Sequence record: MT764207.1
Reading direction: 5' to 3' (one strand)
Length of the DNA stretch: 52,936 bases
From: Escherichia phage JEP7
The translations under genes were made by a program, and so were the position numbers. This document shows positions 3,908 through 47,288 of the stretch, in pieces (within the stretch, counting starts at the first letter, position 1; each line of letters opens with the position of its first letter). A model generated the notes under the pieces. The model saw only the letters and a list, made by a program, of their open reading frames with translations. It was not told the origin of the DNA and ran no database searches.

Positions 3908-4885
3908 ATGTCACTGTATATTTTTAACGAACAAGTACGTTCTACCGCCACCGAACTGGTCGACCAGGACGTACAGAAGTTTAACGAAGCTTCTGCTGGT
4001 ACCCTTATCCTGGGTAACCAGTACGTAATCGGTGATTACGTTGAGCAGGCAATGTGGCAGCTGGTTGACGGTATCGCTACTCGTCGTAACGCTTACGCAG
4101 GCACCAACAAAGTTGATGCGCAGACTCTGGGCCAGATTCTGGACCGCTCTGTTAAGATCGACGGCCGTGTTGGTCCTCTGAACATTACCGGTACTATGAT
4201 GCGTCGCATCGGTGCAGGTGATACTGAACCAGCAGCTGTTGTTGCTGCACAGGCTTCTGCTGCGATGTTCCAGGATTACCTGAACACCACTGCTGCATGT
4301 CTGGTAGCTGCTATCGGTGCAAACGCTGATGTTGTTCTGGACGTAACTGCAGGCTCTGGTGCTGCTGCAAACATCACCATGCAGAACCTGAACAAAGTCA
4401 ACGCGAAGATGGGTGACCGTTCTCAGCAGATTCGTGCGTACATCATGCACTCTACTGCGTTCCACTCCCTCATCGACCAGGCTATCAACAACACAGAACA
4501 CCTGTTCCAGATTGGTGACCTGAACGTGTACAAAGACTTCCTGGGTCGTCGTTATGTCGTTTCCGACATCCCGGCTCTGGTTGATGGCGCCGGTGCTTCC
4601 GCTAAGTACCGCACTCTGGGTCTGACCCCGTCTGCTGCAATCGTTCAGGTCGGCGGCCTGTACGACATGGTTACCTCCGAGCAAACCGGTGGTGAAAACA
4701 TCCTGCGTCAGATGCAGGGTGAATACGACTTCAACGTGTCGCTGAAAGGCTACAGCTGGGTCGGTCACAAAGCTGGTCAGTCTCCGACTGATGAAGACCT
4801 GGCTGCTCAGGCTTCCTGGTCTAAAGTTGCAACTTCCAACAAAGACACCGCTGGTGTTATGTTGCTGGCTAAGTCTGCAATCTAA
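3908..4885 (+). CDS. major capsid protein (putative)
   Basis: 325 aa, follows scaffold gene by 3 nt; strong intrinsic terminator immediately downstream; assignment by synteny. Confidence 0.6.
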   Translation: MSLYIFNEQVRSTATELVDQDVQKFNEASAGTLILGNQYVIGDYVEQAMWQLVDGIATRRNAYAGTNKVDAQTLGQILDRSVKIDGRVGPLNITGTMMRRIGAGDTEPAAVVAAQASAAMFQDYLNTTAACLVAAIGANADVVLDVTAGSGAAANITMQNLNKVNAKMGDRSQQIRAYIMHSTAFHSLIDQAINNTEHLFQIGDLNVYKDFLGRRYVVSDIPALVDGAGASAKYRTLGLTPSAAIVQVGGLYDMVTSEQTGGENILRQMQGEYDFNVSLKGYSWVGHKAGQSPTDEDLAAQASWSKVATSNKDTAGVMLLAKSAI

Positions 4886-4907
4886 CCCACAAACGGGACT
4901 AACAAAA

Positions 4908-4937
4908 GGCGAGCTGACGAGCTCGCCTTTTTTATTT
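4908..4937 (+). terminator. rho-independent terminator
   Basis: GGCGAGC-TGACGA-GCTCGCC hairpin (4908-4927) followed by TTTTTTATTT. Confidence 0.75.
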
Positions 4938-4963
4938 ACACGTATAAAGTTCTGGTATATAAT
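4935..4963 (+). promoter_or_regulatory. sigma70-like promoter (TTTACA-N17-TATAAT)
   Basis: -35 TTTACA 4935-4940, -10 TATAAT 4958-4963; 27 nt upstream of ATG at 4990. Confidence 0.5.
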
Positions 4964-4989
4964 CGGACTAAACTTGCTGGAGGCTTTCT

Positions 4990-5490
4990 ATGGCATACAC
5001 ACTTGTTGTGGAAGACGGTTCAATTGTTCCGGGTGCTAACTCGTATGTTAGCGCTGCAGAAGTAGACGAGTTTATCACTAACGAAGGTATTCTCATTCAG
5101 CCAGGAACTGACCCGTATTACCAGGCTGCCAAAGCAGCTATTCGACTTGATAACCAGTTTAACTGGCTAGGTCGTAAGGTCAGCAAAACACAGAGCATGG
5201 CTTGGCCCCGTACAGGTCTCGGTGCGTGCAATGTTGATATAGCGGAATCTGTAATTCCGCGAGAAGTTAAGCTGGCACAGCTTTATATGCTGGCTAGCGT
5301 ATTGAGCTACGACGGCGAGGAAGGTGTACGCGGTGACCAGGCTTTGCGCCGTAAGAAAGTTGGTAACCTGGAGATTGAATACTTCGACTCCAAGTCAGGT
5401 GTTACCGGTGCAACTGACCTTTGGACTTCAGACGTCAAGGTCATGCTCAAGCACCTTGTGGGTGCATCACTGAGAACGCGGAGAGTATAA
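4990..5490 (+). CDS. head-tail connector / head completion protein (putative)
   Basis: 166 aa ORF with GGAGG RBS, first gene after capsid terminator; function by position only. Confidence 0.35.
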   Translation: MAYTLVVEDGSIVPGANSYVSAAEVDEFITNEGILIQPGTDPYYQAAKAAIRLDNQFNWLGRKVSKTQSMAWPRTGLGACNVDIAESVIPREVKLAQLYMLASVLSYDGEEGVRGDQALRRKKVGNLEIEYFDSKSGVTGATDLWTSDVKVMLKHLVGASLRTRRV

Positions 5491-5978
5491 TGATTCGCAT
5501 ACGCCTTTACCGTCGTGACAAACAAAAGTTCGAGTTCACCTACCGTGCCTTTAAGTCATTCGAAGGTCAAGGCGTATCAGTAGGTGTTCACCCAGAACAT
5601 AACAGACGCGTAAACCCTAGAGATCGTATAACAAACGCTGAGCTTGCAATGGTGCATGAATACGGTCTTAACGGTCTACCAGAACGAAGCTTTCTTCGTA
5701 GCGCTGTTGGCGGTAGGGGTAAAGGTCGACAGGCGATAAACAAAGCTTTCCGTGATAACGTGCCTGCCGTTCTTAGAGGAAGTATGACTGCCCATGAACT
5801 TAACGACAGAATAGGCCGTATGCTTGTCGATGCTGTTCACGACAGAATGGACAGTGACGTGCCACCTCCTAACACCGAGCTGACAGAAGAACGCAAGCGC
5901 GGACCTGGTACACTTAGAGAATCTATGCAATTGTATGATTCGATAGGTTACAAGGTTGGCAGAAACTGGAGGCTATAA
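5490..5978 (+). CDS. neck / head-tail joining protein (putative)
   Basis: ATG at 5490 overlaps upstream stop (TAATG), RBS GAGAG; track ORF 5421-5978 trimmed to this start. Confidence 0.3.
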   Translation: MIRIRLYRRDKQKFEFTYRAFKSFEGQGVSVGVHPEHNRRVNPRDRITNAELAMVHEYGLNGLPERSFLRSAVGGRGKGRQAINKAFRDNVPAVLRGSMTAHELNDRIGRMLVDAVHDRMDSDVPPPNTELTEERKRGPGTLRESMQLYDSIGYKVGRNWRL

Positions 5979-6355
5979 TGCTCAAGATAACTTCGCTAAT
6001 GAAGGATAAGTCCTTTGTGGCATTAACAGATGTTCTTCTCCGAAATGATTCGCGCTTACCAAACGGTGACTTCGAAGACGAATATACAGCTGCAAAGTAT
6101 CTGTGTAATATTCAACCTGGTGCAGCTACCAACCAGCCTAACCTGTTGACTAAAGACGATGGCGAGCATGAGTTCCCACGTATTGCGATATACTGTGGAC
6201 AAGAGCTGAAGCTCGGAGACTTCGTTATATACGAAGACCAGCCATACCGTGTATTCCGTATCGACCCATGGAGTCGTCATGGCCACTACTACGTTACAGC
6301 AATTCTACATAAAGGACCTCAGGGAGCTCGTTCAGAAGCTTTTACCATTACCTGA
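5978..6355 (+). CDS. hypothetical virion protein
   Basis: 125 aa; ATG overlaps upstream stop (TAATG), RBS GGAGG. Confidence 0.3.
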   Translation: MLKITSLMKDKSFVALTDVLLRNDSRLPNGDFEDEYTAAKYLCNIQPGAATNQPNLLTKDDGEHEFPRIAIYCGQELKLGDFVIYEDQPYRVFRIDPWSRHGHYYVTAILHKGPQGARSEAFTIT

Positions 6356-6806
6356 CGGGACATGTATTATTGGTGAAGAGTCTGGTACAGTTGACGGTAG
6401 TCCGTATGTTTACTTGCGCCCTGGCGACGCATATGACTTCGGACCTCCTCGAACCAGACAAGGCGCTGACGGCTTTGAGTACGTCAGTAAGCCTATGATG
6501 ACATCTGTACGTATTACAGCTGTCGGTAAGAATGCTGCTGAGCTAATGCGTAAGCTACACATAGCACTAGGTAGTTCACCAGCTAAGCAGTTTAACCGTT
6601 TACGACATTATGCAATAACCAAAATATCGAAGATTGATAATGTCGGTGGTGCTATCGGTGCAGGCTATGCCCAGAAGTCAATGATGACTGTTGACATTAG
6701 CTATGTGCATAAAGTTAAGATTGAGCAACCGTACATCTACAAGGTTGACATCACTTGTATGGATGATAACGGTAACAAAGCGACTGGTACAGTAGAGGAA
6801 CCGTAA
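6279..6806 (+). CDS. hypothetical virion protein
   Basis: ATG at 6279 preceded by GGAG; track ORF begins at a GTG at 6249; overlaps upstream gene. Confidence 0.3.
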   Translation: MATTTLQQFYIKDLRELVQKLLPLPDGTCIIGEESGTVDGSPYVYLRPGDAYDFGPPRTRQGADGFEYVSKPMMTSVRITAVGKNAAELMRKLHIALGSSPAKQFNRLRHYAITKISKIDNVGGAIGAGYAQKSMMTVDISYVHKVKIEQPYIYKVDITCMDDNGNKATGTVEEP

Positions 6807-7429
6807 TGGCAACTGGAGTAGACCCGGAACTGCAAGCGCAGCTGGATAAGCTAACAACTGCTGTCCAGCTCATTCATGACTTCGGTATGTCAGACGACCC
6901 AAACATCCCTAACCCGGAAGGTGGTGTCATACGCACACTCGAAGGCATTAACGCTGCAATTAACGAAGCTATACCAAACTTTGAAAATGCTAACGAAGCT
7001 GCTATCCAGGCGCGCGCTGCTCGTGATGTAGCTATTGCAGCCAAAGAAGCTGCAGAAACCGCAGCTGAACAGGCTACAGTATCTTCGACGTCAGCAATCT
7101 ATGAGTATGGCAATGTTGCAAGTGCAGCTACCGTAACTATACCTGCTGCATCTAAAACAATTGTTAGCATTACCCTTAATCAGCCAAACACCGTAATTAA
7201 TATCGGTAATGTATCTGACCCGTCTACTGTTGCGCGTCAGATTACTATTGCTATTAAGCAAGGTACTGGTTCTAACAAGGTGACCGCTTGGGATCCCAGA
7301 ATAAAATGGGCCAACAACAGGAAGCCCGTTCTGTCATTCCTTGTGGGTTACACAGATGTTGTTACGTTGCTGACCTTTGACTCAGGCGCAACTTGGATGG
7401 GTTTCTTTAACGGTGGATGGATTAAATAA
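6806..7429 (+). CDS. hypothetical virion protein
   Basis: 207 aa, Ala-rich helical N-terminal half; start overlaps upstream stop. Confidence 0.3.
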   Translation: MATGVDPELQAQLDKLTTAVQLIHDFGMSDDPNIPNPEGGVIRTLEGINAAINEAIPNFENANEAAIQARAARDVAIAAKEAAETAAEQATVSSTSAIYEYGNVASAATVTIPAASKTIVSITLNQPNTVINIGNVSDPSTVARQITIAIKQGTGSNKVTAWDPRIKWANNRKPVLSFLVGYTDVVTLLTFDSGATWMGFFNGGWIK

Positions 7430-10386
7430 TGCACACGATGTTGCTTAAAGACGGATCAGACCATCGAGCTAATGTCGAAAGCCTTATCGAAGGTCACCAC
7501 CATTTTCTTGAGCGCAATACTGGTAGAACTGACGACGCTACGCGTCAGCACTATATCTTCAACCCAGAAGGAGTAGTGTCGAACAACCGCCATTTTATTG
7601 CGCACACTATGATGGAGTACCAGCCTAACGGTGATGCTCCGTCTGAAAGTCAGTCGCTGCTGATACTCGGCGAAATTCACGCGTACCTTGCTACTAAGGA
7701 ACAGCGGTATCTGGACAAAGCAATTGAGTACTTCAATGCTTACGTCAAGTACTATTACGAGGGGGACCCAATCCCTGATACTCCTCGACGCTGGATCGCT
7801 AACTGGCTTTGTAATGGCAAAGAGCCTGTGCTAGCCAGCTTCCCGATCAACCCTGATTCACCAACACAGGGCGGCTATAAAAATGTGCCTGTTAAATTTG
7901 TTAACGGCAAAGCACAAATCCCTCATGGTTCTCCTTTCTGGGGCGAGTACCTGGATGTTGCTACTTGGGCCCACAGGGGGCACATGGCTTGGCCTGCTAT
8001 TAATGGTGGTGTCCGTGTTATTAAAAATAAAGTTGACTGGGACGATATTTACAACAATTATCGCATCACTACCATGCCAGCTGACCCGTGGAATCAGTTA
8101 GCCTGGATTGACTGGCCGAGGTATCTGGGTGAACCAAGCTACACTGTGGACTGGTCAGCTGCTGAACCTCCTGTACATCTCATCGAGTATATTGTTGCAT
8201 GGACCAATAACAAGATTGGTGTTCTGCCTGGCAAAAACGATGAGCTATGGGGAGGCGAGATTCTTGAGACTGGACTGCCTGACTCTCGTAGAGGTGAGAT
8301 TCAACTCCGTGACCACACTGTTAACGGTGTGTATCTGCTTAACTATGCCGTTAAGCTTCCTGTTGAACACGGTGGTTATTTGCTTAAGCGAAATGAAGTA
8401 TGGCACAACAGACCGGTAAACGTTCCATTGTACGGTGAGCTTCAACGCGGTAATGCTGCTGATGCTGAGTTGTGGTTCTGTGACTGCTGCTATATGCTGT
8501 GGCGAATTACTAACGAGCAAAAGTATTACAACGCTTGGCGAGCTGTCCTGTTTACACTGGAGGAGTATATTGATATTGATAAACAAGACCAGTTCTTCAG
8601 ACAAGACCCTCACGCGTCGTCTCCGTTTACTGATGGTATCTCTTATGATTGGACTTATCCTGAACTGGCACAAGCTATATATTCACGTGATGAAAATGGT
8701 TATATAGTTCTACGTCAGAACCAAAAAGCTCAATCATCTCTGGAGCAACAGGCTGTATGGTTTAAGTGTAAGCCAACAGCTAAGATACGTACCGAGGTTG
8801 GTGGTAAAGATGACGCTGGTCAGAATATCAGTGTCAAGGTGGAAATGTACATGAACCGTGAAAAGGTTGACGTCGAGCAAAACGTCTATCGTTTTGTCAC
8901 ACAGCTACCTGCTCTTGGTGCTTCTCCTGCTAACTACGACATTCCGTTAAGCGATTTTGTCGCAGGTACTAAGCCAGACGGTTCTGAGTATATCTTAGCT
9001 GATATTCGTTCATCCACTGATTATGGTAATGCCACTATTGCAGTGTCTTATCGTACTGACATACTCGACAACAGACGTGGCAACACTGTTCGTATGACTA
9101 TACCTGATAGTTCGTCAGGTGCCATTATAGGCTTTTGGTTACTGGAATCTTCCCAGGCACCTTTAAACTCGCTGACGTATACTTCTACAGGTCCGTTGTA
9201 CATCAAAGTAACTGACGCGCAAGGCTGGAGCTGGGTACGTGATTTACCTGCCGCATCAGGCTGGGTAACTCAGCAGATTCGTACATGGGAGTTCAGGCTG
9301 GCGTCATACCAGGAAAACCCAGGTACACCACCTACCAGCCCACAATTCGGCGAGATTAAGCAGTTCTCGTTTGTACTGCCTGACGGCGTTAATACGTCGA
9401 CAAGTATTAGCTGGTACTGTGTGAATGATGTTCCGCCTCGCTATAACTGGCCAATTGGTTACACGATTAAGTATCGTCTTACTTTCTCGGCTGATAACCC
9501 GTACACAGCTAAGCTAGGTGACTGTACTGTGCTGGACTATGAGAACGATAACCTTGCATATACGCCTGGTGTTATTCCGTTCTCCAACATTTATAACCCT
9601 GATTCTCAGCAGTTTGACGGCTGGCATGGTCTACCTTACCCTGGTTATCAGTATCCGTTTGTCTTTACGCATGATGATACTGCGGCTGGTACGACCAGAC
9701 TTAACAACATGGTTAACTTCTTATACGATTCTCAGCAATGGTACTTTAAGAAGTTTGGCCAGCTAGGTCCTGGCGCATCTGCTTTTATCTGGAACCGTTG
9801 GGATAACTTTAAATACGGTGTACCTGATACATTTACCATGTATCACTGGGGCAACGGTAGTGCATGGTCAGGTTACCAGCCTCGTGCTTACTTCTCCGCA
9901 GCACGTGGATGGTATGAGCTAGTAAACCGTGGTAAGCCGGTTCCGAGTAAGCTTATTGCTTACGTGGATAACTGGTCAAAATGGTTGCTTGACTTCATGG
10001 AAAGGTCAGGAGGTGTGTCACCTTCTAACTTCCCGCAAGAAGGTGTTGCTCTGCCAGTCCCTTCAGACTTCACAGGTCACATGTGTGGACTATGGCTTGC
10101 TGGAGCAGCTATGTCAGCCCTTTGTGGGTCAACAGTATCAGGACTTGATAAGCTGATGGATATGCTTGTCAATGAGCTAGAAGACCACTATGACCTAACT
10201 GGTATTCCGGGGCATGTAATGGATGGTGGTTGGTCGCCAGCGTTACGCCTTGAAACTGGTACAGGACCTGAAAGCAACGCCATGTACTATGGTTTTTACT
10301 CTGGCGAAATATTACGAGGGTTGGGCTTATACCTGCTATACAAAAACAAAGGGGCTAAAGCAGATATTTATGATTTAGGCCCGTAA
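7429..10386 (+). CDS. large Trp/Tyr-rich virion-associated protein, possibly carbohydrate-active
   Basis: 985 aa single ORF, very rich in W/Y/N/D/G; lies between neck genes and Ig-like proteins; no P-loop or other motif recognised. Confidence 0.3.
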   Translation: MHTMLLKDGSDHRANVESLIEGHHHFLERNTGRTDDATRQHYIFNPEGVVSNNRHFIAHTMMEYQPNGDAPSESQSLLILGEIHAYLATKEQRYLDKAIEYFNAYVKYYYEGDPIPDTPRRWIANWLCNGKEPVLASFPINPDSPTQGGYKNVPVKFVNGKAQIPHGSPFWGEYLDVATWAHRGHMAWPAINGGVRVIKNKVDWDDIYNNYRITTMPADPWNQLAWIDWPRYLGEPSYTVDWSAAEPPVHLIEYIVAWTNNKIGVLPGKNDELWGGEILETGLPDSRRGEIQLRDHTVNGVYLLNYAVKLPVEHGGYLLKRNEVWHNRPVNVPLYGELQRGNAADAELWFCDCCYMLWRITNEQKYYNAWRAVLFTLEEYIDIDKQDQFFRQDPHASSPFTDGISYDWTYPELAQAIYSRDENGYIVLRQNQKAQSSLEQQAVWFKCKPTAKIRTEVGGKDDAGQNISVKVEMYMNREKVDVEQNVYRFVTQLPALGASPANYDIPLSDFVAGTKPDGSEYILADIRSSTDYGNATIAVSYRTDILDNRRGNTVRMTIPDSSSGAIIGFWLLESSQAPLNSLTYTSTGPLYIKVTDAQGWSWVRDLPAASGWVTQQIRTWEFRLASYQENPGTPPTSPQFGEIKQFSFVLPDGVNTSTSISWYCVNDVPPRYNWPIGYTIKYRLTFSADNPYTAKLGDCTVLDYENDNLAYTPGVIPFSNIYNPDSQQFDGWHGLPYPGYQYPFVFTHDDTAAGTTRLNNMVNFLYDSQQWYFKKFGQLGPGASAFIWNRWDNFKYGVPDTFTMYHWGNGSAWSGYQPRAYFSAARGWYELVNRGKPVPSKLIAYVDNWSKWLLDFMERSGGVSPSNFPQEGVALPVPSDFTGHMCGLWLAGAAMSALCGSTVSGLDKLMDMLVNELEDHYDLTGIPGHVMDGGWSPALRLETGTGPESNAMYYGFYSGEILRGLGLYLLYKNKGAKADIYDLGP

Positions 10387-10392
10387 CCACTA

Positions 10393-10421
10393 TTTACTTA
10401 ACCGAGGCGCCAGCCTATAAT
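10393..10421 (+). promoter_or_regulatory. sigma70-like promoter embedded in an inverted repeat
   Basis: TTTACT 10393-10398, N17, TATAAT 10416-10421; GCGCCAGC...GCTGGCGC dyad straddles the -10. Confidence 0.45.
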
Positions 10422-10453
10422 AAGCTGGCGCACCCAATAAGAGGATTCTCCAG

Positions 10454-11092
10454 ATGGCAAATCGTACTACAGCCAACCGTCCTGTTAAAGACGCAGACCT
10501 GCGTCAAGAGTCGGTTACTCAGTTCCCGTTAGCAAAGCCGACCAAGCTTGATGAGAACGGAAAATTCATTCCAACCCCAGTTACCGGTGTAACTGTTACC
10601 CCTAAAGCTAAGTCAATTGCTGTTGGTGAGTTTACTACTCTGACAGCAGCAGTAGCCCCGGCAGACGCAGATGACGTCACCGTATTGTGGGAAAGCGATA
10701 CACCTGCTAATGCAACTGTTGATGGTTCAGGTCGTGTTCAGGGTATCAAAGTAGGTTCAGCAACTATTACTGCTAAATCCAAGCTTGACCCTGCCAAAAC
10801 CGATACCGTAGCAATTACGGTAACTGCTCCGCCTGTAGCCGTCACTGGTGTTACGTTAGCGCCTAAGTCGCCCAGCGTTGTAGTAGGCTCTACTGTACAG
10901 CTGACTGCAACTGTGCTGCCTGCTGGCGCTACTAACAAAGCTGTTACCTACGAGTCCAATGACACGGCTAAAGCTACTGTTAGCGCTACCGGTCTGGTGA
11001 CTGGTAAAGCAGCTGGCGTCGTCACCATCACTGTCAAAACAGCTGATGGCAGCTTCACTGACACCGCGTCAGTAACTGTTACTGCTGAGTAA
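10454..11092 (+). CDS. Ig-like (BIG2) domain protein
   Basis: 212 aa with two repeats of the pattern VTGVT..PK...VGxT.QLTATV.P..AT...V.W.S....ATV...G.V.........TIT typical of bacterial Ig-like group 2 domains. Confidence 0.6.
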   Translation: MANRTTANRPVKDADLRQESVTQFPLAKPTKLDENGKFIPTPVTGVTVTPKAKSIAVGEFTTLTAAVAPADADDVTVLWESDTPANATVDGSGRVQGIKVGSATITAKSKLDPAKTDTVAITVTAPPVAVTGVTLAPKSPSVVVGSTVQLTATVLPAGATNKAVTYESNDTAKATVSATGLVTGKAAGVVTITVKTADGSFTDTASVTVTAE

Positions 11093-11103
11093 GGAGCTGA
11101 TTG

Positions 11104-13233
11104 ATGTCGCTTCCACTTAATGAGGTTGTCGACGTCCAGTTCAGTAAGAGCAACGGGGGTAAAGGTTTTACCCCCAATGTTCCGCTGGAAGGTATAATGC
11201 TTTCTAACTACGAGTACTCAATCGTCGCGGGTGATGACCCTGTTCAGCTAGTTGTGCGTTACATTCCAACCAACGCTACTGAGCGTGGTATGGCATGGAA
11301 ATCTAGCGACCCGGACGTTATCACTGTTGATGAGCTCGGATTTGTGAAGCCACTGGCGGAAGGTGTTGCATACGTGACTGGTACGTCTGTTGACGGCGGT
11401 TATACAGTACGGGCAAAGTTTAACATTGCTCGGGCACCTATCCTTGTTGAATCTGTTACAGTGTCTCCCACAAGTGTGACGCTTGAAGAGGGCAAGACTC
11501 AACGCCTGACATACACCTATTTACCTGCTAATGCAGACAAACCTGATTTCTACTGGATTTCAGACGATGAGTCTGTTGCTATAGTTAACGACAGCGGGCT
11601 TGTCACTGCCATTGGAGATGGCGAAACAACTGTAAACGTGCAGTACGGTGTTGACAGCTCTATATTCGATAGCTGTACTGTAACTGTTATTCCGCCTGTT
11701 GTACACGTTACAGGAGTTGAGTTTCTTACTCAGTCGCCTATTAACGTTAATATCGGAAGCACAGCTGGTACTAGTATTCGTATATCGCCAGAAGATGCCA
11801 CTGACAAAACAGTGACATACGAAAGCAGTGCGCCTGATGTAGCAACTGTGGATACTGACGGAAATGTTACTGGTATTATAGCTGGTAATGCCACTGTTAC
11901 TGTTAAGACGAATGACGGTGATAAGACTGACACTCTTGACATTATAGTCAGGGTACCTGCTGTAAATGTTACAGGTGTAAGTATTGATGAAGGCGATACA
12001 GCTTCTATGGAGGTTGGTGACACGCTTCAGCTACATGCCACTGTGACTCCTGAAAATGCTACTGACCCGTCTGTTGTATGGAGTGCTCCTGTATCAGAAG
12101 TTGCGTCTGTGACTGAAGCTGGTTTGGTAACCGCTAACGCTGCAGGTTTAATTGATGTTACTGTTATCACTAATGATGGGAACTTTACTGATAGAATCGA
12201 GGTTAAAGTTACAGACCCCAGAATCGCAGTTACGGATGTTGCATGGGCTCCTGACTCTCCGACTAAAGTAAGTGCCGGCCATCAGGTGCAAACTAAAATT
12301 GTTATAACACCTGACAACGCAACTAACAAAAAAGTTAGCTACAATAGTTCAAACCCAGACGCTGTTACTGTTGACACTAACGGAGTTATATACGGCCAAT
12401 CTCCTGGAACTTCGACTATTACAGTTACAACAGACGACGGTGGACTTGTTGCTTCGTTTGTAGCGACTTGCACAGAGGTGGCTGTTATTACACCAGATGG
12501 TCTTGGTGGTATTCCAGTAGGTGGTACTCAGCAGTTCACTTACACTGTTAACCAGTCTGACGCTGAGCTGACTAATATTCGTTATGAGTCTGCTGACCCA
12601 GCTATTGCAACTGTTGATTCATCAGGCGTTGTAACTGGTGTTGCTAGCGGCGGATGTAACATCTGGATTTACGCAACTAGTAATGGTGCTGACATTAGCG
12701 CAGCTACTTGGGCACAAATTTCTGAGAGGGTACAGGTCTATCCGCAGTATGCTGAATGGCTTGTGGGTAACACCAAACAACTTGATGTTGAGATCTATCC
12801 GTCGGACTCTAAGAGCGTTACTGTTACTTATAGCTCGTCAGATGACTCTATAATTAGTGTAGATGCAAATGGCTTGATGACTGCTAAGTCTGAAGGTTCA
12901 GCAACTATTACTGCTAACGTTGTAATGAACGGTGTTGCTGCTTCTGGTACAACATCTCCTTACGTGTCTGAGCTTTCTGTTACTACGGATTCGCTGCCTG
13001 CACTTACTGTTGGTAACACGCAGCAGCTCGTTGTAACTGTTAGACCTGAATACGCTAAGACAGACGCAGGCTATAGCATTCAGTATACAACTACAGACGA
13101 TACTGTCGCTACTGTAAGTAATGCTGGTGTTATTACTGGTGTTGGTAGTGGTGGATGTCGTATTGGTGCCACAGTAACTGTGAGAAACGCTACAGCGTCG
13201 GACAGCTCTTATCAGTCCGTCGATGCAGCATAA
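11104..13233 (+). CDS. multi-domain Ig-like (BIG2) repeat protein
   Basis: about 709 aa with at least six tandem Ig-like repeats of the same pattern; ATG at 11104 with AGGAG RBS (track starts at a TTG at 11101). Confidence 0.6.
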   Translation: MSLPLNEVVDVQFSKSNGGKGFTPNVPLEGIMLSNYEYSIVAGDDPVQLVVRYIPTNATERGMAWKSSDPDVITVDELGFVKPLAEGVAYVTGTSVDGGYTVRAKFNIARAPILVESVTVSPTSVTLEEGKTQRLTYTYLPANADKPDFYWISDDESVAIVNDSGLVTAIGDGETTVNVQYGVDSSIFDSCTVTVIPPVVHVTGVEFLTQSPINVNIGSTAGTSIRISPEDATDKTVTYESSAPDVATVDTDGNVTGIIAGNATVTVKTNDGDKTDTLDIIVRVPAVNVTGVSIDEGDTASMEVGDTLQLHATVTPENATDPSVVWSAPVSEVASVTEAGLVTANAAGLIDVTVITNDGNFTDRIEVKVTDPRIAVTDVAWAPDSPTKVSAGHQVQTKIVITPDNATNKKVSYNSSNPDAVTVDTNGVIYGQSPGTSTITVTTDDGGLVASFVATCTEVAVITPDGLGGIPVGGTQQFTYTVNQSDAELTNIRYESADPAIATVDSSGVVTGVASGGCNIWIYATSNGADISAATWAQISERVQVYPQYAEWLVGNTKQLDVEIYPSDSKSVTVTYSSSDDSIISVDANGLMTAKSEGSATITANVVMNGVAASGTTSPYVSELSVTTDSLPALTVGNTQQLVVTVRPEYAKTDAGYSIQYTTTDDTVATVSNAGVITGVGSGGCRIGATVTVRNATASDSSYQSVDAA

Positions 13234-13258
13234 AAATTAATTAACTTTGCCTCGGCCA

Positions 13259-13287
13259 TTTACTTGGGTAAACTTACTGAGTATAAT
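13259..13287 (+). promoter_or_regulatory. sigma70-like promoter flanked by an inverted repeat
   Basis: TTTACT 13259-13264, N17, TATAAT 13282-13287; CGGCCAT...ATGGCCG dyad flanks it. Confidence 0.45.
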
Positions 13288-13319
13288 GGCCGGAAAGTCC
13301 ACCCAAGAGGTAATCAAAA

Positions 13320-14459
13320 ATGCCGTTGAATGTAAACCAGATTGTAAACGTTCAACTGAACAACACTCCAACTGGTATCAGCAAAGGTGACTTCGGTAAG
13401 CTGGCTCTTTTAACTCAGGACCCTGGCACTGCTTTTCCTGACAGCGAAAACGGACACTATGTTGAAATCGGCAGCTACTCTGAAGCCGAGTCTTATTGGG
13501 GTACTGGTTCAGTTGTGCTTGGCGCGTTGAAGATTTTCTTTGCACAATCTCCGCGTCCTCGTTCAGTAGTTATCGCCTCATGGAACAACACCTCTACTCT
13601 GGATGCGGCTATTAAAGCATTCAACGATGTGTACCCTGACTGGTATGTTCTGCGTCCGCTCCCACCTACTGGTGAGCTGTCTGACGATGACATCGATTTG
13701 CTGGCGTCAACTGTTGCTGCTTACGACAAAAAGCGTTGCAGCTATACTACCACTAAAGCAACTCATATTGAAAACAGCGACTCCAACCCGATTAAAGTTC
13801 TGGCTGGTAAAGGCTACAACAATATGTGGCTTCAGTACGATAAGAACAACCAGCACTACGCAGACATCTCTGCTATGGCGCGTGCTCTGTCTGTTAACTT
13901 CTCTGGTAACCGCACCACTATTACCATGAAGTTCAAACAAGAGCCTGGTATTACACCGAACAACACTTTAACGCTTACTGAAGCTAACAAGTGTAAAGCG
14001 CTGGGTATTAACTGGTACACCTACTACAGCACCTTTGCTATGCTTGCAGAAGGTACTGTCCTTGGTACGTCCAAGCCGCCGCGCTTCTGGGATGAAGTAC
14101 ACGGTCTAGACTGGTTCTGTAATGCAGTTCAGACTTACGTCTTCAACTCAATCGCTACGTCACCCACGAAGGTGCCGCAGACGAACAAAGGTCACGAGCG
14201 CCTTACCGGTGCTGCAGCTGTTGCTTGTCAGCAGGCTGTCGACAACGGCTTGGTTGCGCCTGGTATCTGGTACGGTGATGAGTTTGGTACACTGTCTTAT
14301 GGTGACCGACTCGAAACAGGTTTCTACATCTACATCCCTGACGTAGATGACCAGCCTCTGGATGAGCGTGAAGCTCGTCAGGCCGTTGTAATGCAAATCG
14401 CGATTAAGCTGGCTGGTGCAATCCACTCCAGCGACATCCTGATTAACTTCACTCGCTAA
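13320..14459 (+). CDS. tail sheath protein (putative)
   Basis: 379 aa, first gene of tail block, followed by a tube-sized gene, a frameshifted chaperone and the tape measure gene; assignment by gene order. Confidence 0.4.
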   Translation: MPLNVNQIVNVQLNNTPTGISKGDFGKLALLTQDPGTAFPDSENGHYVEIGSYSEAESYWGTGSVVLGALKIFFAQSPRPRSVVIASWNNTSTLDAAIKAFNDVYPDWYVLRPLPPTGELSDDDIDLLASTVAAYDKKRCSYTTTKATHIENSDSNPIKVLAGKGYNNMWLQYDKNNQHYADISAMARALSVNFSGNRTTITMKFKQEPGITPNNTLTLTEANKCKALGINWYTYYSTFAMLAEGTVLGTSKPPRFWDEVHGLDWFCNAVQTYVFNSIATSPTKVPQTNKGHERLTGAAAVACQQAVDNGLVAPGIWYGDEFGTLSYGDRLETGFYIYIPDVDDQPLDEREARQAVVMQIAIKLAGAIHSSDILINFTR

Positions 14460-14470
14460 GGAGCAGATCA

Positions 14471-14902
14471 ATGATCATCGATTCTTCTGAATGCGTGTTG
14501 AGCCTGAATGGTGTTCAGCTGTCCGACTGGGCAGACGGTGCCGATGTCATTGACGTGCAATGGGTGGACCCAGCTTCCACCTATCTTGCAGGCGCTGATG
14601 GCGGTGGTATCCAGATTATGAACCCGTCCAAAGCCATTAAGCTGACTATCAAAGTTAAGCAAAGTGGTCCGGACGCCAAATGGCTTAACGACCAATACAA
14701 CCTGCAGCGTAACAACATTCGTGGATTCGTCCCGTTTGTGCTGCAAGCTAAAGACCTGCTGAACCAGGATTTGGCATGGGGTAAAAAAGGTTACTTTACC
14801 GATGGTTCCCCGTGGACTCGTGGTAACGGCCATAACCCGACTACCTTCTCTATTGTGTTCCACCAAGGTGGCATGCAGTTGACTGAAGGCTTTGACCAGT
14901 AA
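14471..14902 (+). CDS. tail tube protein (putative)
   Basis: 143 aa, between sheath-sized gene and chaperone; synteny only. Confidence 0.4.
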   Translation: MIIDSSECVLSLNGVQLSDWADGADVIDVQWVDPASTYLAGADGGGIQIMNPSKAIKLTIKVKQSGPDAKWLNDQYNLQRNNIRGFVPFVLQAKDLLNQDLAWGKKGYFTDGSPWTRGNGHNPTTFSIVFHQGGMQLTEGFDQ

Positions 14903-14920
14903 CAATAAAGGAAAGCACAA

Positions 14921-15349
14921 ATGACTGAGCCCAAATCATTTGACATCGACGACGTAACGTACAACATGACACTCGCAAACGCGCTGCAAGCCTGGACAGT
15001 CCTGAAAAAAGCAGGTAAGCTGTTCAAAGGCATTGGCAACGCTGACATTGTGGGTAAAGACGGCAAAGTGGACGGTAAGAAAGCAATGCTGGTCCTGTTG
15101 GACGCTGTTCTGGAGAACGCAGGTTCTGACGAGATGACAGCTATTGAGGAATTAATCTTCCGCAATACTGTTGTTGTAGTTGATGGCAAACCGCGTAAGC
15201 TGTCTGACTGTAAAGACCAACACTTCAACGCATATCGTAGCCACATCTTCGGTGTGCTTAAGGAGGGATTGGTATATCAGTTCGCGGATTTTTTCAAAGG
15301 GAATGGCCTGTCAGGTCTAGCGGGTCTAGCCACGCCCTTGACGAAATAA
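14921..15349 (+). CDS. tail assembly chaperone (G-like, short form)
   Basis: 142 aa immediately upstream of tape measure gene; contains slippery heptamer T_TTT_TTC near its 3' end. Confidence 0.55.
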   Translation: MTEPKSFDIDDVTYNMTLANALQAWTVLKKAGKLFKGIGNADIVGKDGKVDGKKAMLVLLDAVLENAGSDEMTAIEELIFRNTVVVVDGKPRKLSDCKDQHFNAYRSHIFGVLKEGLVYQFADFFKGNGLSGLAGLATPLTK

Positions 15350-21560: not shown

Positions 21561-22206
21561 ATATCATAAACTACTTATTCAACAGTACGCTGATAAACCA
21601 AAAGCTGTTGCAACTATTAAGGGCTTCGATGATGCAATTCAAGGTATCTGGGACGGCGCCCAACAAGTTGTTGATAGCCTTAATATAGATAAAGCTTTTG
21701 GTAAAGGTCTTGATAATGTTGCAGCCCGCGTCGGTGCATCTCGTGTTCTCAAGAAAGGCGTAGACCGTAAGTTCTTCGGCTTTACCAACAAAGTACCAGA
21801 CGTGCTTGGCTTCGGTGGTTCGTCTGGTAATAAAGGTGGCCCGTTCTATCGCTACGGTGCATCAGTTTGGGACCCGGTAATTCTTGACGACATTGACCTG
21901 CGTACTTACATCAAGATGAAAATCTGGAAGAACATGCAAGACGGTACTATGCCGTATCTAATTGACTTCCTGATTGAATTCTTCGGAATGAATAACTTCG
22001 TTATAACTGACAACGAAGATATGACAATGACTCTGGAGATATACAGTACTCTGACTCCGCTTAAACAAGTGTTGATTCAGAACTATGATATTCTTCCGCG
22101 CCCCACAGGGGTGAAGATTGAACTTAACACGAGCGTTGACGTCACGGATAGTCTGTACCGTTACGCTACTGTAAACTTACCAGCACAGGTGAATGTATAT
22201 GGCTGA
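21547..22206 (+). CDS. baseplate/tail protein (gpI-like, putative)
   Basis: 219 aa; overlaps both neighbours; synteny. Confidence 0.3.
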   Translation: MLMAEYHKLLIQQYADKPKAVATIKGFDDAIQGIWDGAQQVVDSLNIDKAFGKGLDNVAARVGASRVLKKGVDRKFFGFTNKVPDVLGFGGSSGNKGGPFYRYGASVWDPVILDDIDLRTYIKMKIWKNMQDGTMPYLIDFLIEFFGMNNFVITDNEDMTMTLEIYSTLTPLKQVLIQNYDILPRPTGVKIELNTSVDVTDSLYRYATVNLPAQVNVYG

Positions 22207-44452: not shown

Positions 44453-44463
44453 GTAAGTAAATC

Positions 44464-44506
44464 AAGGGCTTGGGTAATTGTAAAAATCCTAAGCCCTTAT
44501 TTTTTA
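44464..44506 (+). terminator. rho-independent terminator
   Basis: AAGGGCTTGGG / CCTAAGCCCTT stem with 13-nt loop followed by ATTTTTTAAG directly after primase-helicase stop. Confidence 0.6.
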
Positions 44507-44599
44507 AGCTTATTTTACAAACTGATTAATATTTAAACTATAATTAAATATATGGGCTCTAAGAGTATGATTTTATTACTCTTTTACAAATCATAATAT

Positions 44600-44860
44600 A
44601 TGAGCTCCTTATAAAAGATTAAGGGGGTAAAAAAGGGGGATACAAGTACCGGATAAAGGGGGTATATATTTATTTATTATTATTATTATTATTATATATT
44701 ATTAATTATATTAGAAGTAATAAAAACAGCTACTTAGAGGCGTCTATATGTATGATCCGGTTTATCTCTTTATTAATATCAGAACCGGATGAAAAAAATT
44801 TACGCCGGCGAAAAAAATAAAAAAGCCGGATTGATAAATAAATCTGTAGACGTTTACACT
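44600..44860. repeat. AT-rich iteron/microsatellite region (candidate replication origin or regulatory hub)
   Basis: three AAGGGGG(T/A)A copies (44622, 44634, 44656); (TTA)7 microsatellite about 44676-44697; repeated CCGGAT/ATCCGG/GCCGGC motifs each followed by A-runs. Confidence 0.4.
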
Positions 44861-44882
44861 GTAAAAAAGATGTGCTACAATA
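44854..44882 (+). promoter_or_regulatory. sigma70-like promoter (TTTACA-N17-TACAAT)
   Basis: upstream of gene starting 44936. Confidence 0.45.
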
Positions 44883-44935
44883 TTTATCAATGTTGCTGAT
44901 TACCAAAACTTTGAATTGTATACGAGGCTGAATAA

Positions 44936-46085: not shown

Positions 46086-46197
46086 AAGGCCTCCACTTGT
46101 GGGTTAATTCAAGCATGAGGACTTTCATCAAATCCTCAGGATTGAATTAATTACCAGCTTTTAATCAAGCCCTGTCAGCGCCAGGACTTGACTAATA

Positions 46198-46787: not shown

Positions 46788-46855
46788 GTTTCTCTCTCCT
46801 ATTGATATAATTTCAATCATGAACTATCACAACTTTGGATAGTTCATTGTTGAAA

Positions 46856-47283: not shown

Positions 47284-47288
47284 TTTGA

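What the first reader, a model, noticed from the sequence alone, without database searches (positions are those of the whole stretch)
10454..13233. Two adjacent proteins built almost entirely of Ig-like (BIG2) repeats
The 212-aa and roughly 709-aa products consist of tandem repeats with the recurring pattern VTGV..P.......VGxT.QL.ATV.P..AT...V.W.S.....ATVD..G.V.........TIT, at least eight repeats in total. Their position between neck and sheath-like genes suggests capsid or tail decoration or auxiliary adhesion rather than core structure. Having a short and a long paralog side by side is unusual.
Basis: seen in the sequence. Interest (0 to 1): 0.4.

Follow-up and report, generated by a model that had tools for sequence, protein, structure and literature searches.

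The report
Two Ig-repeat virion proteins, sheath-like anchor
Two neighbouring genes of a known Salmonella/E. coli phage group encode accessory virion proteins built from ten Ig-like (Big_2) domains, which is ordinary for phages, but the long one starts with a copy of the tail sheath's own docking strand, suggesting how it attaches to the tail.

Summary
ORF-S (10454-11092, 212 aa) has 2 Big_2 domains and ORF-L (ATG 11104-13233, 709 aa) has 8. They are real, diverged domains (18-48% identity).

The window is a Rosemountvirus-type genome (98% identical to phages emhyr and yarpen), and the gene pair is already present in more than 50 deposited genomes. It is annotated there as hypothetical, Ig-like, or (wrongly) "major tail protein".

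The pair belongs to a four-gene accessory module inserted between the tail terminator and sheath genes, which abut in canonical relatives. The module consists of p207, a 985-aa glycosidase-like protein, ORF-S and ORF-L. Published virion proteomics detect the short protein in two related phages (80-86% coverage) and the long one in one.

The new point is that ORF-L's invariant N-terminus (MSLPLNEVVDVQF) matches the N-terminal "handshake" strand of DUF3383/E217-type sheaths. It is the only non-sheath hit in every locus searched.

My best-supported inference is that six copies plug into the strand position left empty on the head-proximal sheath ring. From there they would carry flexible Ig strings, mosaic at their distal ends, for weak glycan adhesion. 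The short protein has a different anchor and its site is unresolved.

The gene pair is ordinary as a class. The attachment idea is new and unproven; the AlphaFold test was inconclusive.

The parts
10454..11092 (+). ORF-S: a 212-aa virion protein made of an N-terminal anchor segment plus 2 Big_2 domains.
   Evidence: ORF and own AAGAGG Shine-Dalgarno. Big_2 E=1.7e-34 with 2 stretches. Orthologue S144 gp18 had 80% MS coverage and fHy-Eco03 Gp30 had 85.7% coverage with 47 PSMs.
10454..10570 (+). ORF-S N-terminal segment (aa 1-39, conserved to about aa 45). It is not Ig-like, is Pro- and charge-rich, and is the putative attachment segment.
   Evidence: Nearly invariant across Rosemountvirus and Loughboroughvirus orthologues that are 74% identical overall. 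60% identical in SOI901 and replaced by a different, longer segment in fHy-Eco03 and KE25. No Pfam hit and no match to the sheath-arm HMM.
10571..10831 (+). Big_2 domain S1 (aa 40-126), the conserved proximal domain.
   Evidence: Much more conserved between genera than S2.
10832..11089 (+). Big_2 domain S2 (aa 127-212), the more variable distal domain.
   Evidence: Best solved-structure matches are the Ig domain of lambda gpV and the T5-type tube proteins.
11104..13233 (+). ORF-L: a 709-aa protein made of a sheath-type N-terminal arm plus 8 Big_2 domains and a conserved C-terminal tail.
   Evidence: The fHy-Eco03 orthologue Gp31 was detected in virions (11 peptides, 17 PSMs, 14% coverage).
11104..11175 (+). 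ORF-L N-arm (aa 1-24, MSLPLNEVVDVQFSKSNGGKGFTP). Its core strand motif is aa 3-13. It is homologous to the N-terminal handshake strand of DUF3383/E217-type sheath proteins.
   Evidence: 100% invariant among orthologues only 54% identical overall. It aligns ungapped with sheath N-termini. Many sheaths start MSLPLSQIVNVQLN. The sheath-arm HMM hits only sheaths and this exact N-terminus. hhalign gives probability 79%, E=1.7e-5, in register. It is conserved at the protein level despite divergent codons.
11176..11436 (+). Big_2 domain L1 (aa 25-111), the proximal, lineage-tracking domain.
   Evidence: Arm+L1 is 39-41% identical in all three distant lineages.
11437..12720 (+). Big_2 domains L2-L6 (aa 112-539; boundaries at aa 198/199, 285/286, 372/373 and 456/457). 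This is the region of domain gain and loss.
   Evidence: Phage birk lacks exactly one domain through an in-register L3/L4 junction, and S144/ES2-BCU-3 lack one domain around L6/L7.
12721..13230 (+). Big_2 domains L7-L8 (aa 540-709) with the conserved C-terminal tail ASDSSYQSVDAA; the putative distal binding tip.
   Evidence: The C-terminus is conserved in all lineages. It is 42-46% identical to the C-terminus of 'tail proteins' of Vequintavirinae-type phages; in phage 4MG that protein is the last gene of the tail-fibre cluster.
13320..14459 (+). Tail sheath (DUF3383 / E217_gp31_N family), the proposed docking partner of ORF-L. Its own N-arm is aa 1-17 (nt 13320-13370).
   Evidence: Pfam E=1e-72. 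Solved relatives are XM1 gp6 (E=2e-29) and the Pam3 sheath (E=1e-10); residues 5-13 align to their N-terminal strand.
6279..6806 (+). Tail terminator (PF23961), the upstream border of the inserted accessory module.
   Evidence: Pfam E=3.3e-17 and phrog_7975 'tail terminator'. In canonical relatives this gene abuts the sheath gene.
6806..7429 (+). p207, the first gene of the module; its PHROG families are labelled 'tail fiber protein'.
   Evidence: phrog_27998 and others. No Pfam hit. Virion-associated in S144 (gp16) and fHy-Eco03 (Gp28).
7429..10386 (+). p985, the second gene of the module: a virion protein with a glycoside-hydrolase-like (alpha/alpha)6 barrel and a CBM-like beta-sandwich insert.
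   Evidence: AlphaFold pLDDT 90.7, pTM 0.84. Foldseek matches GH48 cellulases and CBM11/CBM22 with probability 1.0. Abundant in virion MS.
10393..10421 (+). Promoter-like site (TTTACT-17-TATAAT) in the gap upstream of ORF-S. An identical site lies at 13259-13287 upstream of the sheath gene.
   Evidence: The number of sites is not above chance, but the two + strand sites fall in the only two intergenic gaps. Promoters are annotated at the same places in S144 and BP63. This is weak evidence.

Best explanation
SHOWN: ORF-S and ORF-L are accessory, virion-associated proteins made of 2 and 8 Big_2 Ig-like domains. They belong to a four-gene module (p207, a glycosidase-like 985-aa protein, ORF-S, ORF-L) inserted between the tail-terminator and sheath genes in the Rosemountvirus/Loughboroughvirus/fHy-Eco03/SOI901 clade. 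Each has a different conserved N-terminal attachment segment. ORF-L's first ~13 residues are a sequence homologue of the N-terminal 'handshake' strand of its own sheath family.

INFERRED: In this sheath family, each ring donates an N-terminal and a C-terminal strand to a beta-turn of the ring below. At the last, head-proximal ring, the terminator supplies only the C-terminal-type strand, so the N-arm position is empty in E217, Pam3 and XM1. I propose that ORF-L inserts its sheath-like N-arm into that empty position. That would give about six copies per virion at the neck-tail junction. Each copy would carry a flexible string of eight Ig domains, roughly 25-30 nm long if extended. Its proximal part co-evolves with the phage, while its distal domains and C-terminal tip are exchanged horizontally. 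The string would make weak, multivalent contacts with surface glycans (LPS O-antigen, capsule or mucus) that raise the encounter rate before the baseplate fibre binds. The anchor would survive contraction because the hinge sheet is preserved.

ORF-S is a separate, probably more abundant decoration protein with an unrelated 40-45-aa extended anchor and a conserved proximal domain. Its binding site (capsid, sheath surface or the module's other proteins) is not resolved.
For: - Domains: Big_2 assignments and ten delimited domains.
- Accessory status: canonical relatives with the same terminator, sheath, tube and chaperone families have terminator and sheath adjacent and no Ig genes; the window terminator was identified.
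- Virion association: S144 gp18 had 80% coverage and 17 peptides. fHy-Eco03 Gp30 had 85.7% coverage and 47 PSMs, and Gp31 had 11 peptides and 17 PSMs.
- Anchor conservation: ORF-L residues 1-24 are invariant at 54% overall identity; ORF-S residues 1-45 and domain S1 are nearly invariant.
- Sheath-arm homology: ungapped alignment in two diverged clades. Sheath N-termini such as MSLPLSQIVNVQLN. An HMM of 70 sheath N-termini scores the window's sheath at 49 bits, the ORF-L N-terminus at 12.5 bits in context (18-21 bits as a peptide, E~1e-7), and the next hit at 4.8 bits. In 12 loci (192,000 aa), all sheaths score 42-50 bits, all 8 ORF-L orthologues score 10-16 bits at residue 1, and noise is 6 bits or less. 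hhalign gives probability 79%, in register. Selection is at the protein level, with divergent codons.
- Structural mapping: sheath residues 5-13 align to the N-terminal strand of the Pam3 and XM1 sheaths.
- Empty slot: Pam3, E217's 3-stranded sheet at the top ring, phage 812's terminator strand being equivalent to the sheath C-terminal strand, XM1, and phiTE keeping 4 strands only through extra terminator strands.
- Precedent for neck-mounted host-binding proteins in this tail lineage: the XM1 gp40 collar spike.
- Host-interaction signature: the distal array is 72% identical to fHy-Eco03 versus 38% to SOI901 and KE25, while arm+L1 is 39-41% in all three. In-register domain loss occurs. L7-L8 is homologous to the C-terminus of a fibre-cluster protein in phage 4MG.
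- Neighbour: p985 is glycosidase/CBM-like.
Against: - No structure or localisation exists for any member of this clade.
- The arm match is short (12-14 residues), and its score within the full-length protein is modest (i-E 0.003-0.05 per locus).
- The AlphaFold test of an ORF-L(1-111)-linker-sheath(deltaN) fusion was inconclusive: the sheath part had pLDDT ~90 but the whole ORF-L part had pLDDT ~30.
- ORF-L's orthologue (ORF19) was not among the 32 proteins detected in S144 virions, although 3-6-copy proteins were.
- The fHy-Eco03 preparation also contained replication enzymes, so 'virion-associated' is a loose label there and PSM counts do not track copy number.
- In the window/S144 clade, the first 72 nt are nearly identical even at synonymous sites and contain a stable hairpin. 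Part of the invariance there could therefore be RNA-level constraint or recent recombination.
- Glycan binding by these Big_2 domains is assumed from other phages and was not tested.
- Nothing locates ORF-S.
Confidence: 0.5

Rival explanations
1. Both proteins are Hoc-like capsid decoration proteins that bind the major capsid protein (for example at hexamer centres). The resemblance of ORF-L's N-terminus to the sheath arm has no structural meaning.
For: - The genome has no other decoration or cement gene near the capsid gene.
- ORF-S is among the best-covered proteins in two virion proteomes, comparable to the capsid protein.
- phrog_215 ('structural protein with Ig domain', head category) and a weak Hoc-like phrog_1149 hit.
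- A solved Hoc-like protein (7x30_P) matches ORF-L's Ig domains.
- The fHy-Eco03 authors' HHpred top hit for Gp31 was RB69 Hoc.
Against: - All of these matches run through the generic Ig domains only.
- The genes lie inside the tail-assembly cluster, between terminator and sheath.
- The sheath-arm motif is specific, positionally exact and conserved in two clades at the protein level.
- ORF-L's proteomic signal is low or absent, unlike a capsid-wide decoration.
- For ORF-S alone, this rival remains quite plausible.
Confidence: 0.2
2. The N-terminal similarity is an evolutionary relic or a non-structural signal. For example, ORF-L could have arisen by fusing the 5' end of a sheath gene to an Ig array and kept it as a translation-initiation or mRNA element, or as a shared chaperone or assembly tag. 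ORF-L would then attach elsewhere, for example through p207 or p985 or the baseplate fibre network.
For: - ORF-L sits immediately upstream of the sheath gene, so a local duplication is easy to imagine.
- In the window/S144 clade, the first 72 nt are almost identical even at synonymous sites and include a stable hairpin (z=-3.2).
- L7-L8 is related to a protein of a baseplate fibre cluster in phage 4MG.
- S144 micrographs describe only distal fibres, with no collar or whiskers reported.
Against: - Between clades the codons differ, yet the peptide motif is kept.
- The long-gene and sheath-gene 5' ends are not notably similar at the DNA level.
- The hairpin is absent from the SOI901, fHy-Eco03 and KE25 clade, which keeps the arm.
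- The conserved positions are exactly those conserved in sheath arms family-wide.
- The terminator, another strand donor, shows no such sequence similarity, so this is not a generic property.
Confidence: 0.15
3. The proteins are structural stabilisers rather than adhesins. ORF-L's arm completes the four-stranded hinge sheet of the last sheath ring to strengthen or regulate the neck-sheath junction (sheath termination, contraction control), and the Ig arrays are passive spacers. ORF-S similarly reinforces the capsid or sheath.
For: - phiTE needs extra terminator strands to keep the hinge sheet complete in head-proximal rings.
- Neck decoration proteins that reinforce junctions exist in phage 812.
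- The arm is far more conserved than the Ig array.
Against: - Eight Ig domains with horizontal exchange, domain gain and loss, and a conserved distal tip shared with fibre-cluster proteins are hard to explain as spacers.
- Canonical relatives with same-sized terminators manage without ORF-L.
- This rival shares the docking mechanism with the best explanation and differs only in purpose.
Confidence: 0.1

Closest known systems
T4 Hoc and Hoc-like Ig-domain decoration proteins (e.g. PDB 7x30 ORF90)
   Same: A non-essential-looking virion surface protein made of tandem Ig-like domains plus one short attachment element. The expected role is weak adhesion to glycans. ORF-L's Ig domains match a solved Hoc-like protein.
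   Different: Hoc binds capsid hexamers. Here the genes lie in the tail cluster, ORF-L carries a sheath-type arm instead of a capsid-binding domain, and it has 8 domains. No capsid binding was shown or testable.
Big_2 domains appended to tail-tube proteins (lambda gpV C-terminal domain, T5 pb6-type, PDB 2l04/6p3e/9mfe)
   Same: The same Pfam family (Big_2). These are the best solved-structure matches of ORF-S domain 2 and the source of the 'major tail protein' label.
   Different: Those are C-terminal add-ons of the tube protein itself in non-contractile tails. Here the Ig arrays are free-standing proteins, the tube is a separate PF11681 protein, and it is covered by a sheath.
Strand donation to the sheath hinge ('handshake') sheet by tail terminators and sheath initiators (E217 gp29, Pam3 gp12/gp21, XM1 gp5/gp15, phiTE terminator)
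   Same: A non-sheath protein attaches to a sheath ring by adding a beta-strand to the sheath's C-terminal beta-turn. The mechanism proposed for ORF-L is the same.
   Different: Those donors are core tail proteins. They use the C-terminal-type position or act as acceptors, and they show no sequence similarity to sheath arms. ORF-L would be an accessory protein using a true sequence copy of the N-terminal arm. This has not been shown structurally.
Neck-attached accessory fibres: XM1 collar spike gp40, T4 fibritin whiskers
   Same: An accessory, host-sensing appendage at the head-tail junction of a contractile-tailed phage. XM1 has the closest solved sheath to this phage.
   Different: Those are trimeric coiled-coil or spike proteins bound to head-completion and terminator proteins through globular N-domains. 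ORF-L has no coiled coil, is a string of Ig domains, and would bind the sheath ring through a single strand.
Tail fibres / receptor-binding proteins with conserved N-terminal anchor and exchanged distal parts
   Same: A lineage-tracking proximal part and a horizontally exchanged distal part, with a distal tip shared with a fibre-cluster protein of phage 4MG.
   Different: There is no evidence of trimerisation, a fibre chaperone or baseplate attachment. The clade's recognised fibre is the Mu-S-like ORF at 22193-23533, which has two assembly proteins.

Membership tests
Big_2 (PF02368) bacterial Ig-like domain group 2 | A significant match to the Pfam Big_2 profile above the gathering threshold. 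| tested here: met
   ORF-S scores 118 bits (cut-off 22.8) with 2 stretches. ORF-L scores 306 bits with 8 stretches. Ten domains were delimited.
Big_2 (PF02368) bacterial Ig-like domain group 2 | A beta-sandwich Ig-like fold. | tested here: inconclusive
   Sequence matches to solved Big_2 domains (lambda gpV, LigA, bglH) imply the fold. The only model that contained an ORF-L domain had pLDDT ~30 because of a shallow alignment.
Major tail (tube) protein (the label carried by phrog_28902/341/41 and many GenBank records) | Contains the tail-tube fold domain that polymerises into the tube. | tested here: not met
   PHROG matches cover only the Ig part (for example positions 156-244 of 245 in phrog_41). 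Big_2 domains account for nearly all residues. The phage has its own tube protein (PF11681, 14471-14902).
Tail sheath, DUF3383 / E217_gp31_N (PF11863) | Sheath N- and C-terminal globular domains. | tested here: not met
   Neither ORF-S nor ORF-L hits PF11863. Only the first ~13 residues of ORF-L resemble the sheath.
Tail sheath, DUF3383 / E217_gp31_N (PF11863) | An N-terminal arm strand with the motif (L)x(L/V)xx(I/V)V(N/D)VQ(L/I/F) at the extreme N-terminus. | tested here: met
   ORF-L and all 8 orthologues match the sheath-arm HMM at residue 1, and hhalign aligns them in register. ORF-S does not match.
Hoc-like head decoration protein | A capsid-binding element and location on capsid hexamers. 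| not testable with these tools
   There are only generic Ig-domain matches (phrog_1149 E=1.7e-4 for ORF-S; 7x30_P). No localisation data exist.
Programmed-frameshift Ig extension (Ig domain added to a structural protein by frameshifting) | Overlapping open frames that allow a fusion of the upstream protein with the Ig-encoding frame. | tested here: not met
   The ORF-S stop is at 11090-11092. The ORF-L frame is closed by TGA at 11098-11100 and opens only at 11101. Both genes have their own Shine-Dalgarno site.
Strand-donating partners of the sheath hinge sheet (terminator/initiator-like docking) | A terminal strand resolved in the sheath's inter-ring beta-sheet. | tested here: inconclusive
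   The AlphaFold fusion model drew residues 8-15 as a strand but with pLDDT ~30. No experimental structure exists for this clade.

The most novel reading that the evidence does not exclude
An accessory phage protein has captured a copy of the sheath's own N-terminal handshake strand. It uses that strand to plug into the one strand position left unfilled on the last sheath ring under the neck. This 'strand-mimicry' docking would hang six exchangeable Ig-domain strings on a contractile tail without any dedicated adaptor. If general, it would give a simple, portable way to mount cargo or adhesins on contractile tails and injection systems, and it might also tune sheath termination or contraction.
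Probability: 0.4. Interest if true: 0.6.

Novelty: new variant of a known kind. Interest (0 to 1): 0.4.

Why it matters
As a class, Ig-like decoration proteins on phages are well known, and this gene pair is already in dozens of GenBank records, so the bare finding is ordinary. Three things could still matter.

2. **Applied relevance.** Rosemountvirus and Loughboroughvirus phages are being developed for Salmonella and E. coli biocontrol. An accessory glycan-targeting module (a glycosidase-like protein plus two Ig-array proteins) could influence adsorption, host range and retention on mucosal or food surfaces.

3. **Mechanism.** The sheath-arm homology gives a concrete, cheaply testable attachment mechanism. 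If confirmed, it would be a new way of docking accessory proteins to contractile sheaths and a possible engineering handle for displaying domains on phage tails, pyocins or other contractile injection systems.

Tried and rejected
- **Frameshift or read-through fusion of ORF-S to ORF-L:** excluded by the stop-codon layout and separate ribosome-binding sites.
- **Low-complexity artefact:** excluded by shuffle controls and Pfam.
- **Pfam scan of the isolated N-terminal peptides:** uninformative, because even the sheath's own first 60 residues give no hit alone.
- **Simple pairwise score of the ORF-L and sheath N-termini within this phage:** only suggestive (p~0.004). It became convincing only with the family-wide profile.
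- **AlphaFold fusion test of arm docking:** inconclusive, because the whole ORF-L segment had pLDDT ~30.
- **Co-variation search for ORF-S's binding partner:** across four diverged genomes, no structural protein mirrors the anchor's pattern.
- **Using spectral counts as copy numbers:** rejected. In fHy-Eco03 the tape measure protein tops the list, tube and sheath are low, and replication enzymes are present.
- **Terminator C-terminus as a sequence mimic of the sheath C-arm:** no similarity (p=0.39).
- **The 2026 'gp38 inhibits adsorption' paper on a Rosemountvirus:** gp38 is an unrelated 123-aa DUF7173 protein.
- **Word-index protein search with ORF-L residues 1-112:** it returned essentially nothing, with only 5 candidates.
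- **Search for the arm+Ig architecture outside the clade:** in IMG/VR only 5 loci were found, all in the same clade.
- **DNA-level duplication of the sheath 5' end into ORF-L:** no notable nucleotide similarity.


Full report
**What the window is.** The 52,936-bp window is essentially a complete genome of a Rosemountvirus-type myophage. The 3.1-kb region around the finding is 98% identical to Salmonella phages emhyr and yarpen and 95-97% identical to about 40 other Salmonella and E. coli phages. Gene coordinates coincide exactly with Escherichia phage vB_EcoM_PiR (OM313461.1, also 52,936 bp). The sequence is only 96.1% identical over 9 kb, with no indels.

**Observation.**
- Both ORFs are present. 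ORF-S is 10454-11092 (212 aa).
- ORF-L is best started at ATG 11104 (709 aa), because it has a GGAG ribosome-binding site, phrog_28902 aligns end to end, and the orthologue annotations agree.
- Pfam Big_2 gives E=1.7e-34 with 2 stretches in ORF-S and E=4.9e-93 with 8 stretches in ORF-L.
- I delimited ten domains of about 85 aa. They are 18-48% identical to one another. Most pairs score far above the shuffled controls, although a few of the most diverged pairs fall within the shuffled range.
- At the DNA level only short, diverged repeats remain. These are therefore old domain duplications, not low complexity.
- A fusion of the two ORFs by frameshifting is impossible. The ORF-S stop is at 11090-11092, and the ORF-L frame is closed by TGA at 11098-11100.

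**Context.**
- Upstream are the capsid protein (PF20036), neck proteins and the tail terminator (6279-6806; PF23961, E=3e-17).
- Downstream are the sheath (DUF3383/E217_gp31_N), the tube (PF11681), a chaperone and the tape measure protein.
- In three unrelated prophages or metagenomic phages with the same terminator, sheath, tube and chaperone families, the terminator gene abuts the sheath gene and there are no Ig genes.
- Four genes therefore form a ~6.5-kb accessory module inserted at that junction: p207 (6806-7429), p985 (7429-10386), ORF-S and ORF-L.
- p207 falls in PHROGs labelled 'tail fiber protein'.
- p985 gave a confident AlphaFold model (pLDDT 90.7, pTM 0.84). Its helical core matches (alpha/alpha)6 glycoside hydrolases (GH48, probability 1.0; also GH116, a rhamnosidase and a C5-epimerase). 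Its beta-sandwich insert matches carbohydrate-binding modules CBM11 and CBM22 (probability 1.0, TM 0.5-0.58). This agrees with the S144 authors' HHpred hint of hydrolase activity.

**Conservation of the pair.** The short+long pair, directly upstream of the sheath gene, is present in every relative examined:

| Phage | Short protein (aa) | Long protein (aa) |
|---|---|---|
| window | 212 | 709 |
| birk | 212 | 622 |
| S144 and ES2-BCU-3 (Loughboroughvirus type) | 213 | 624 |
| Erwinia phage SOI901 | 213 | 628 |
| fHy-Eco03 | 143 | 705 |
| KE25 | 226 | 624 |

Domain number varies. Phage birk lost exactly one domain through an in-register L3/L4 junction, and S144 lacks one domain around L6/L7. 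The fHy-Eco03 short protein has one Ig domain. A scan of IMG/VR found the long protein's N-terminal architecture only in this clade.

**Virion association (published proteomics).**
- In S144, the short orthologue gp18 (22 kDa) had the highest coverage of all proteins (80%, 17 peptides). ORF19, the long orthologue, is not in the list of detected proteins (PMC7432712).
- In fHy-Eco03, both proteins are flagged as virion-associated. Table S6 gives Gp30 85.7% coverage and 47 PSMs, and Gp31 14.4% coverage, 11 peptides and 17 PSMs (PMC8145870).
- These data are not quantitative. The tape measure protein tops the list, tube and sheath score low, and replication enzymes are present.
- I therefore take 'present in virions' as reasonably shown for the short protein, shown once for the long one, and copy numbers as unknown.

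**The attachment segments.**
- Among long-protein orthologues only 54% identical overall, residues 1-24 are 100% invariant, and the C-terminal tail ASDSSYQSV(D/N) is also conserved.
- In the short protein, residues 1-45 and domain S1 are nearly invariant, while S2 varies.
- The short protein's anchor is clade-specific. It is 60% identical in SOI901 and is replaced by a different segment in fHy-Eco03 and KE25.

**The sheath-arm homology (the main new result).** The long protein's N-terminus aligns without gaps with the N-terminus of the sheath:

| Protein | Clade | N-terminal sequence |
|---|---|---|
| Long protein | window/S144 | MSLPLNEVVDVQFS |
| Long protein | fHy-Eco03 | MGLPLKEIVNVQIG |
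| Sheath | window | M-PLNVNQIVNVQLN |
| Sheath | fHy-Eco03 | MTLSVNNVVNVQLN |

- Of 120 sheath homologues retrieved, many from unrelated prophages start MSLPLSQIVNVQLN.
- An HMM of 70 distinct sheath N-termini was searched against all 577 open frames of the window. It hits the sheath at 49.2 bits, then the exact N-terminus of ORF-L at 12.5 bits in context (18-21 bits for the isolated peptides, E about 1e-7), then noise at 4.8 bits.
- Over 12 loci (192,000 aa of six-frame translation), all sheaths score 42-50 bits. All eight long-protein orthologues score 10-16 bits, always at residue 1. Nothing else exceeds 6 bits.
- Profile-profile comparison aligns columns 1-16 in register (probability 79%, E=1.7e-5).
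- Between the two clades the codons differ while the peptide is kept, so selection acts on the protein.
- The two genes' 5' ends are not notably similar as DNA.
- The short protein's N-terminus does not match.

**What that strand does in solved relatives.**
- This sheath is homologous to the solved XM1 gp6 (E=2e-29) and Pam3 (E=1e-10) sheaths. Residues 5-13 align to their N-terminal strand: Pam3 residues 6-14 YSRVTNVTL and XM1 residues 4-12 ISEVIRVSL.
[quoted passage not shown] At the top, only the terminator's C-terminal strand adds to that beta-turn (PMC9942802).
- E217, whose gp31 names the Pfam family, has an N-terminal arm (residues 1-23). At the top ring it has only a three-stranded sheet made with the terminator gp29's C-terminal extension, and this sheet is kept after contraction (PMC10329688).
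- The phage 812 neck paper states that the terminator's C-terminal strand takes the place of the sheath's C-terminal strand (PMC12886913).
- XM1 shows the same handshake and terminator capping (PMC10457771).
- phiTE keeps four strands in the head-proximal rings only because its terminator donates three strands, whereas terminators generally contribute a single strand (PMC11972413).
- The position normally occupied by a sheath N-arm is therefore vacant on the last ring in the closest solved relatives.
- This phage's terminator (175 aa) is no longer than those of canonical relatives (173-187 aa), and its C-terminus shows no sequence similarity to the sheath C-arm.

**Inference.** ORF-L most likely docks by inserting its sheath-like N-arm into that vacant position, giving about six copies at the neck-tail junction. 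Each would carry a flexible string of eight Ig domains. The estimate of about 25-30 nm assumes ~3.5-4 nm per domain; this is general knowledge, not measured here.

XM1's collar spike gp40 is a precedent for neck-mounted host-sensing appendages in this tail lineage.

The long protein also behaves like a host-interaction protein:
- The arm+L1 part tracks lineage (39-41% identity in all three distant genomes). L2-L8 is 72% identical between the window and fHy-Eco03 but 38% in SOI901 and KE25.
- L7-L8 plus the C-terminal tail is 42-46% identical to the C-terminus of 'tail proteins' of Vequintavirinae-type phages. In phage 4MG that protein is the last gene of the tail-fibre cluster.
- Together with the glycosidase/CBM-like p985, the module looks like an accessory apparatus aimed at surface glycans. 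Glycan binding itself was not tested.

**Limits.**
- The direct test I could run was an AlphaFold model of ORF-L(1-111), a 40-residue linker and the sheath lacking its own arm. The homologues in the alignment were trimmed of their arms to avoid circularity. It was inconclusive: the sheath part had pLDDT ~90, the whole ORF-L part had pLDDT ~30, and a strand was drawn at residues 8-15 without confidence.
- The long protein was not detected in S144 virions.
- In the window/S144 clade, the first 72 nt are almost identical even at synonymous sites and contain a stable hairpin (11155-11175; z=-3.2). Part of the invariance there may be RNA-level constraint or recent exchange. The hairpin is absent from the other clade, which keeps the arm.
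- The short protein's site is unresolved. A co-variation search found no partner. A capsid (Hoc-like) location remains plausible for it, since no other decoration gene is present and it is strongly represented in proteomes.

**Comparison with the known.**
- Both proteins are clear Big_2 proteins (membership met).
- They are not tube proteins. The 'major tail protein' label comes from Ig-only matches to lambda gpV-type proteins, and the phage has its own tube protein.
- They are not sheath proteins (no PF11863 match).
- Functionally they are closest to Hoc-like Ig decoration proteins and to neck or side fibres.
- Mechanistically, the proposed docking is closest to the strand donation by terminators and sheath initiators, with the difference that ORF-L uses a true sequence copy of the sheath's N-arm.
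- In the library searched, no paper that mentions Rosemountvirus discusses this attachment.

**Verdict.** The finding is real and, as a class, ordinary and already sequenced many times. Its function and location are uncharacterised. The sheath-arm homology is a specific, testable new idea, and I give it about a 0.4-0.5 probability of being the attachment mechanism.

Noticed in passing
window 1-52936 (checked 6000-15000): The window has exactly the length (52,936 bp) and ORF coordinates of Escherichia phage vB_EcoM_PiR (OM313461.1). It is only 96.1% identical over 9 kb, with no indels, while phages emhyr and yarpen are 98% identical in the 3.1-kb region. It is a collinear sibling rather than that record.
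   Followed up: partly
window 6806-13233: A four-gene accessory module (p207, p985, ORF-S, ORF-L; ~6.5 kb) is inserted between the tail terminator and sheath genes. These two genes are adjacent in canonical phages and prophages with the same tail gene families.
   Followed up: yes
window 7429-10386: The 985-aa 'tail protein' has no Pfam hit, but its AlphaFold model is confident (pLDDT 90.7). It resembles (alpha/alpha)6-barrel glycoside hydrolases (GH48, GH116) with a CBM11/CBM22-like beta-sandwich insert, so it may be a virion-borne polysaccharide-degrading or polysaccharide-binding enzyme. It is mosaic between lineages: 76-79% identity to fHy-Eco03 and KE25 versus 50% to SOI901.
   Followed up: partly
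window 11155-11175: A perfect 9-bp hairpin (GGGGGTAAA-GGT-TTTACCCCC) lies in the ORF-L mRNA just after the N-arm codons. The 117-nt 5' region folds at -40.5 kcal/mol (z=-3.2). The first 72 nt are nearly identical, including synonymous sites, between the window and S144 clades, but the hairpin is absent from SOI901, fHy-Eco03 and KE25.
   Followed up: partly
window 10393-10431 and 13259-13287: Two identical promoter-like sites (TTTACT-17-TATAAT) sit in the only two intergenic gaps, upstream of ORF-S and of the sheath gene. The first overlaps an inverted repeat (GGCGCCAGC...GCTGGCGC) whose loop holds the TATAAT. Promoters are annotated at the equivalent places in S144 and BP63.
   Followed up: no
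window 10753-10776 and 12894-12917: An exact 24-nt repeat (AGGTTCAGCAACTATTACTGCTAA, encoding GSATITA) is shared between domain S1 of the short gene and domain L7 of the long gene. The domains are otherwise only about 27% identical. This could be gene conversion or chance.
   Followed up: no
L004 (birk) 4860-6728; L002 (S144) 7208-9082: The long protein shows in-register gain or loss of whole Ig domains within and between genera. Phage birk joins L3 to L4 at a shared TNDG motif, and S144 lacks one domain around L6/L7.
   Followed up: yes
public records of orthologues: Annotation of the two genes is inconsistent and partly wrong across GenBank and papers. [quoted passage not shown]
   Followed up: yes
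PP583539.1 (hit H18): A record named 'Listeria phage 220426122051', with host Listeria monocytogenes, is 96% identical to this enterobacterial phage region. This is probably a host misassignment or a contaminant.
   Followed up: no
window 44001-50000: GC content drops to 0.39-0.42 here, against about 0.46-0.50 elsewhere. This parallels the low-GC cluster of small genes described for S144.
   Followed up: no
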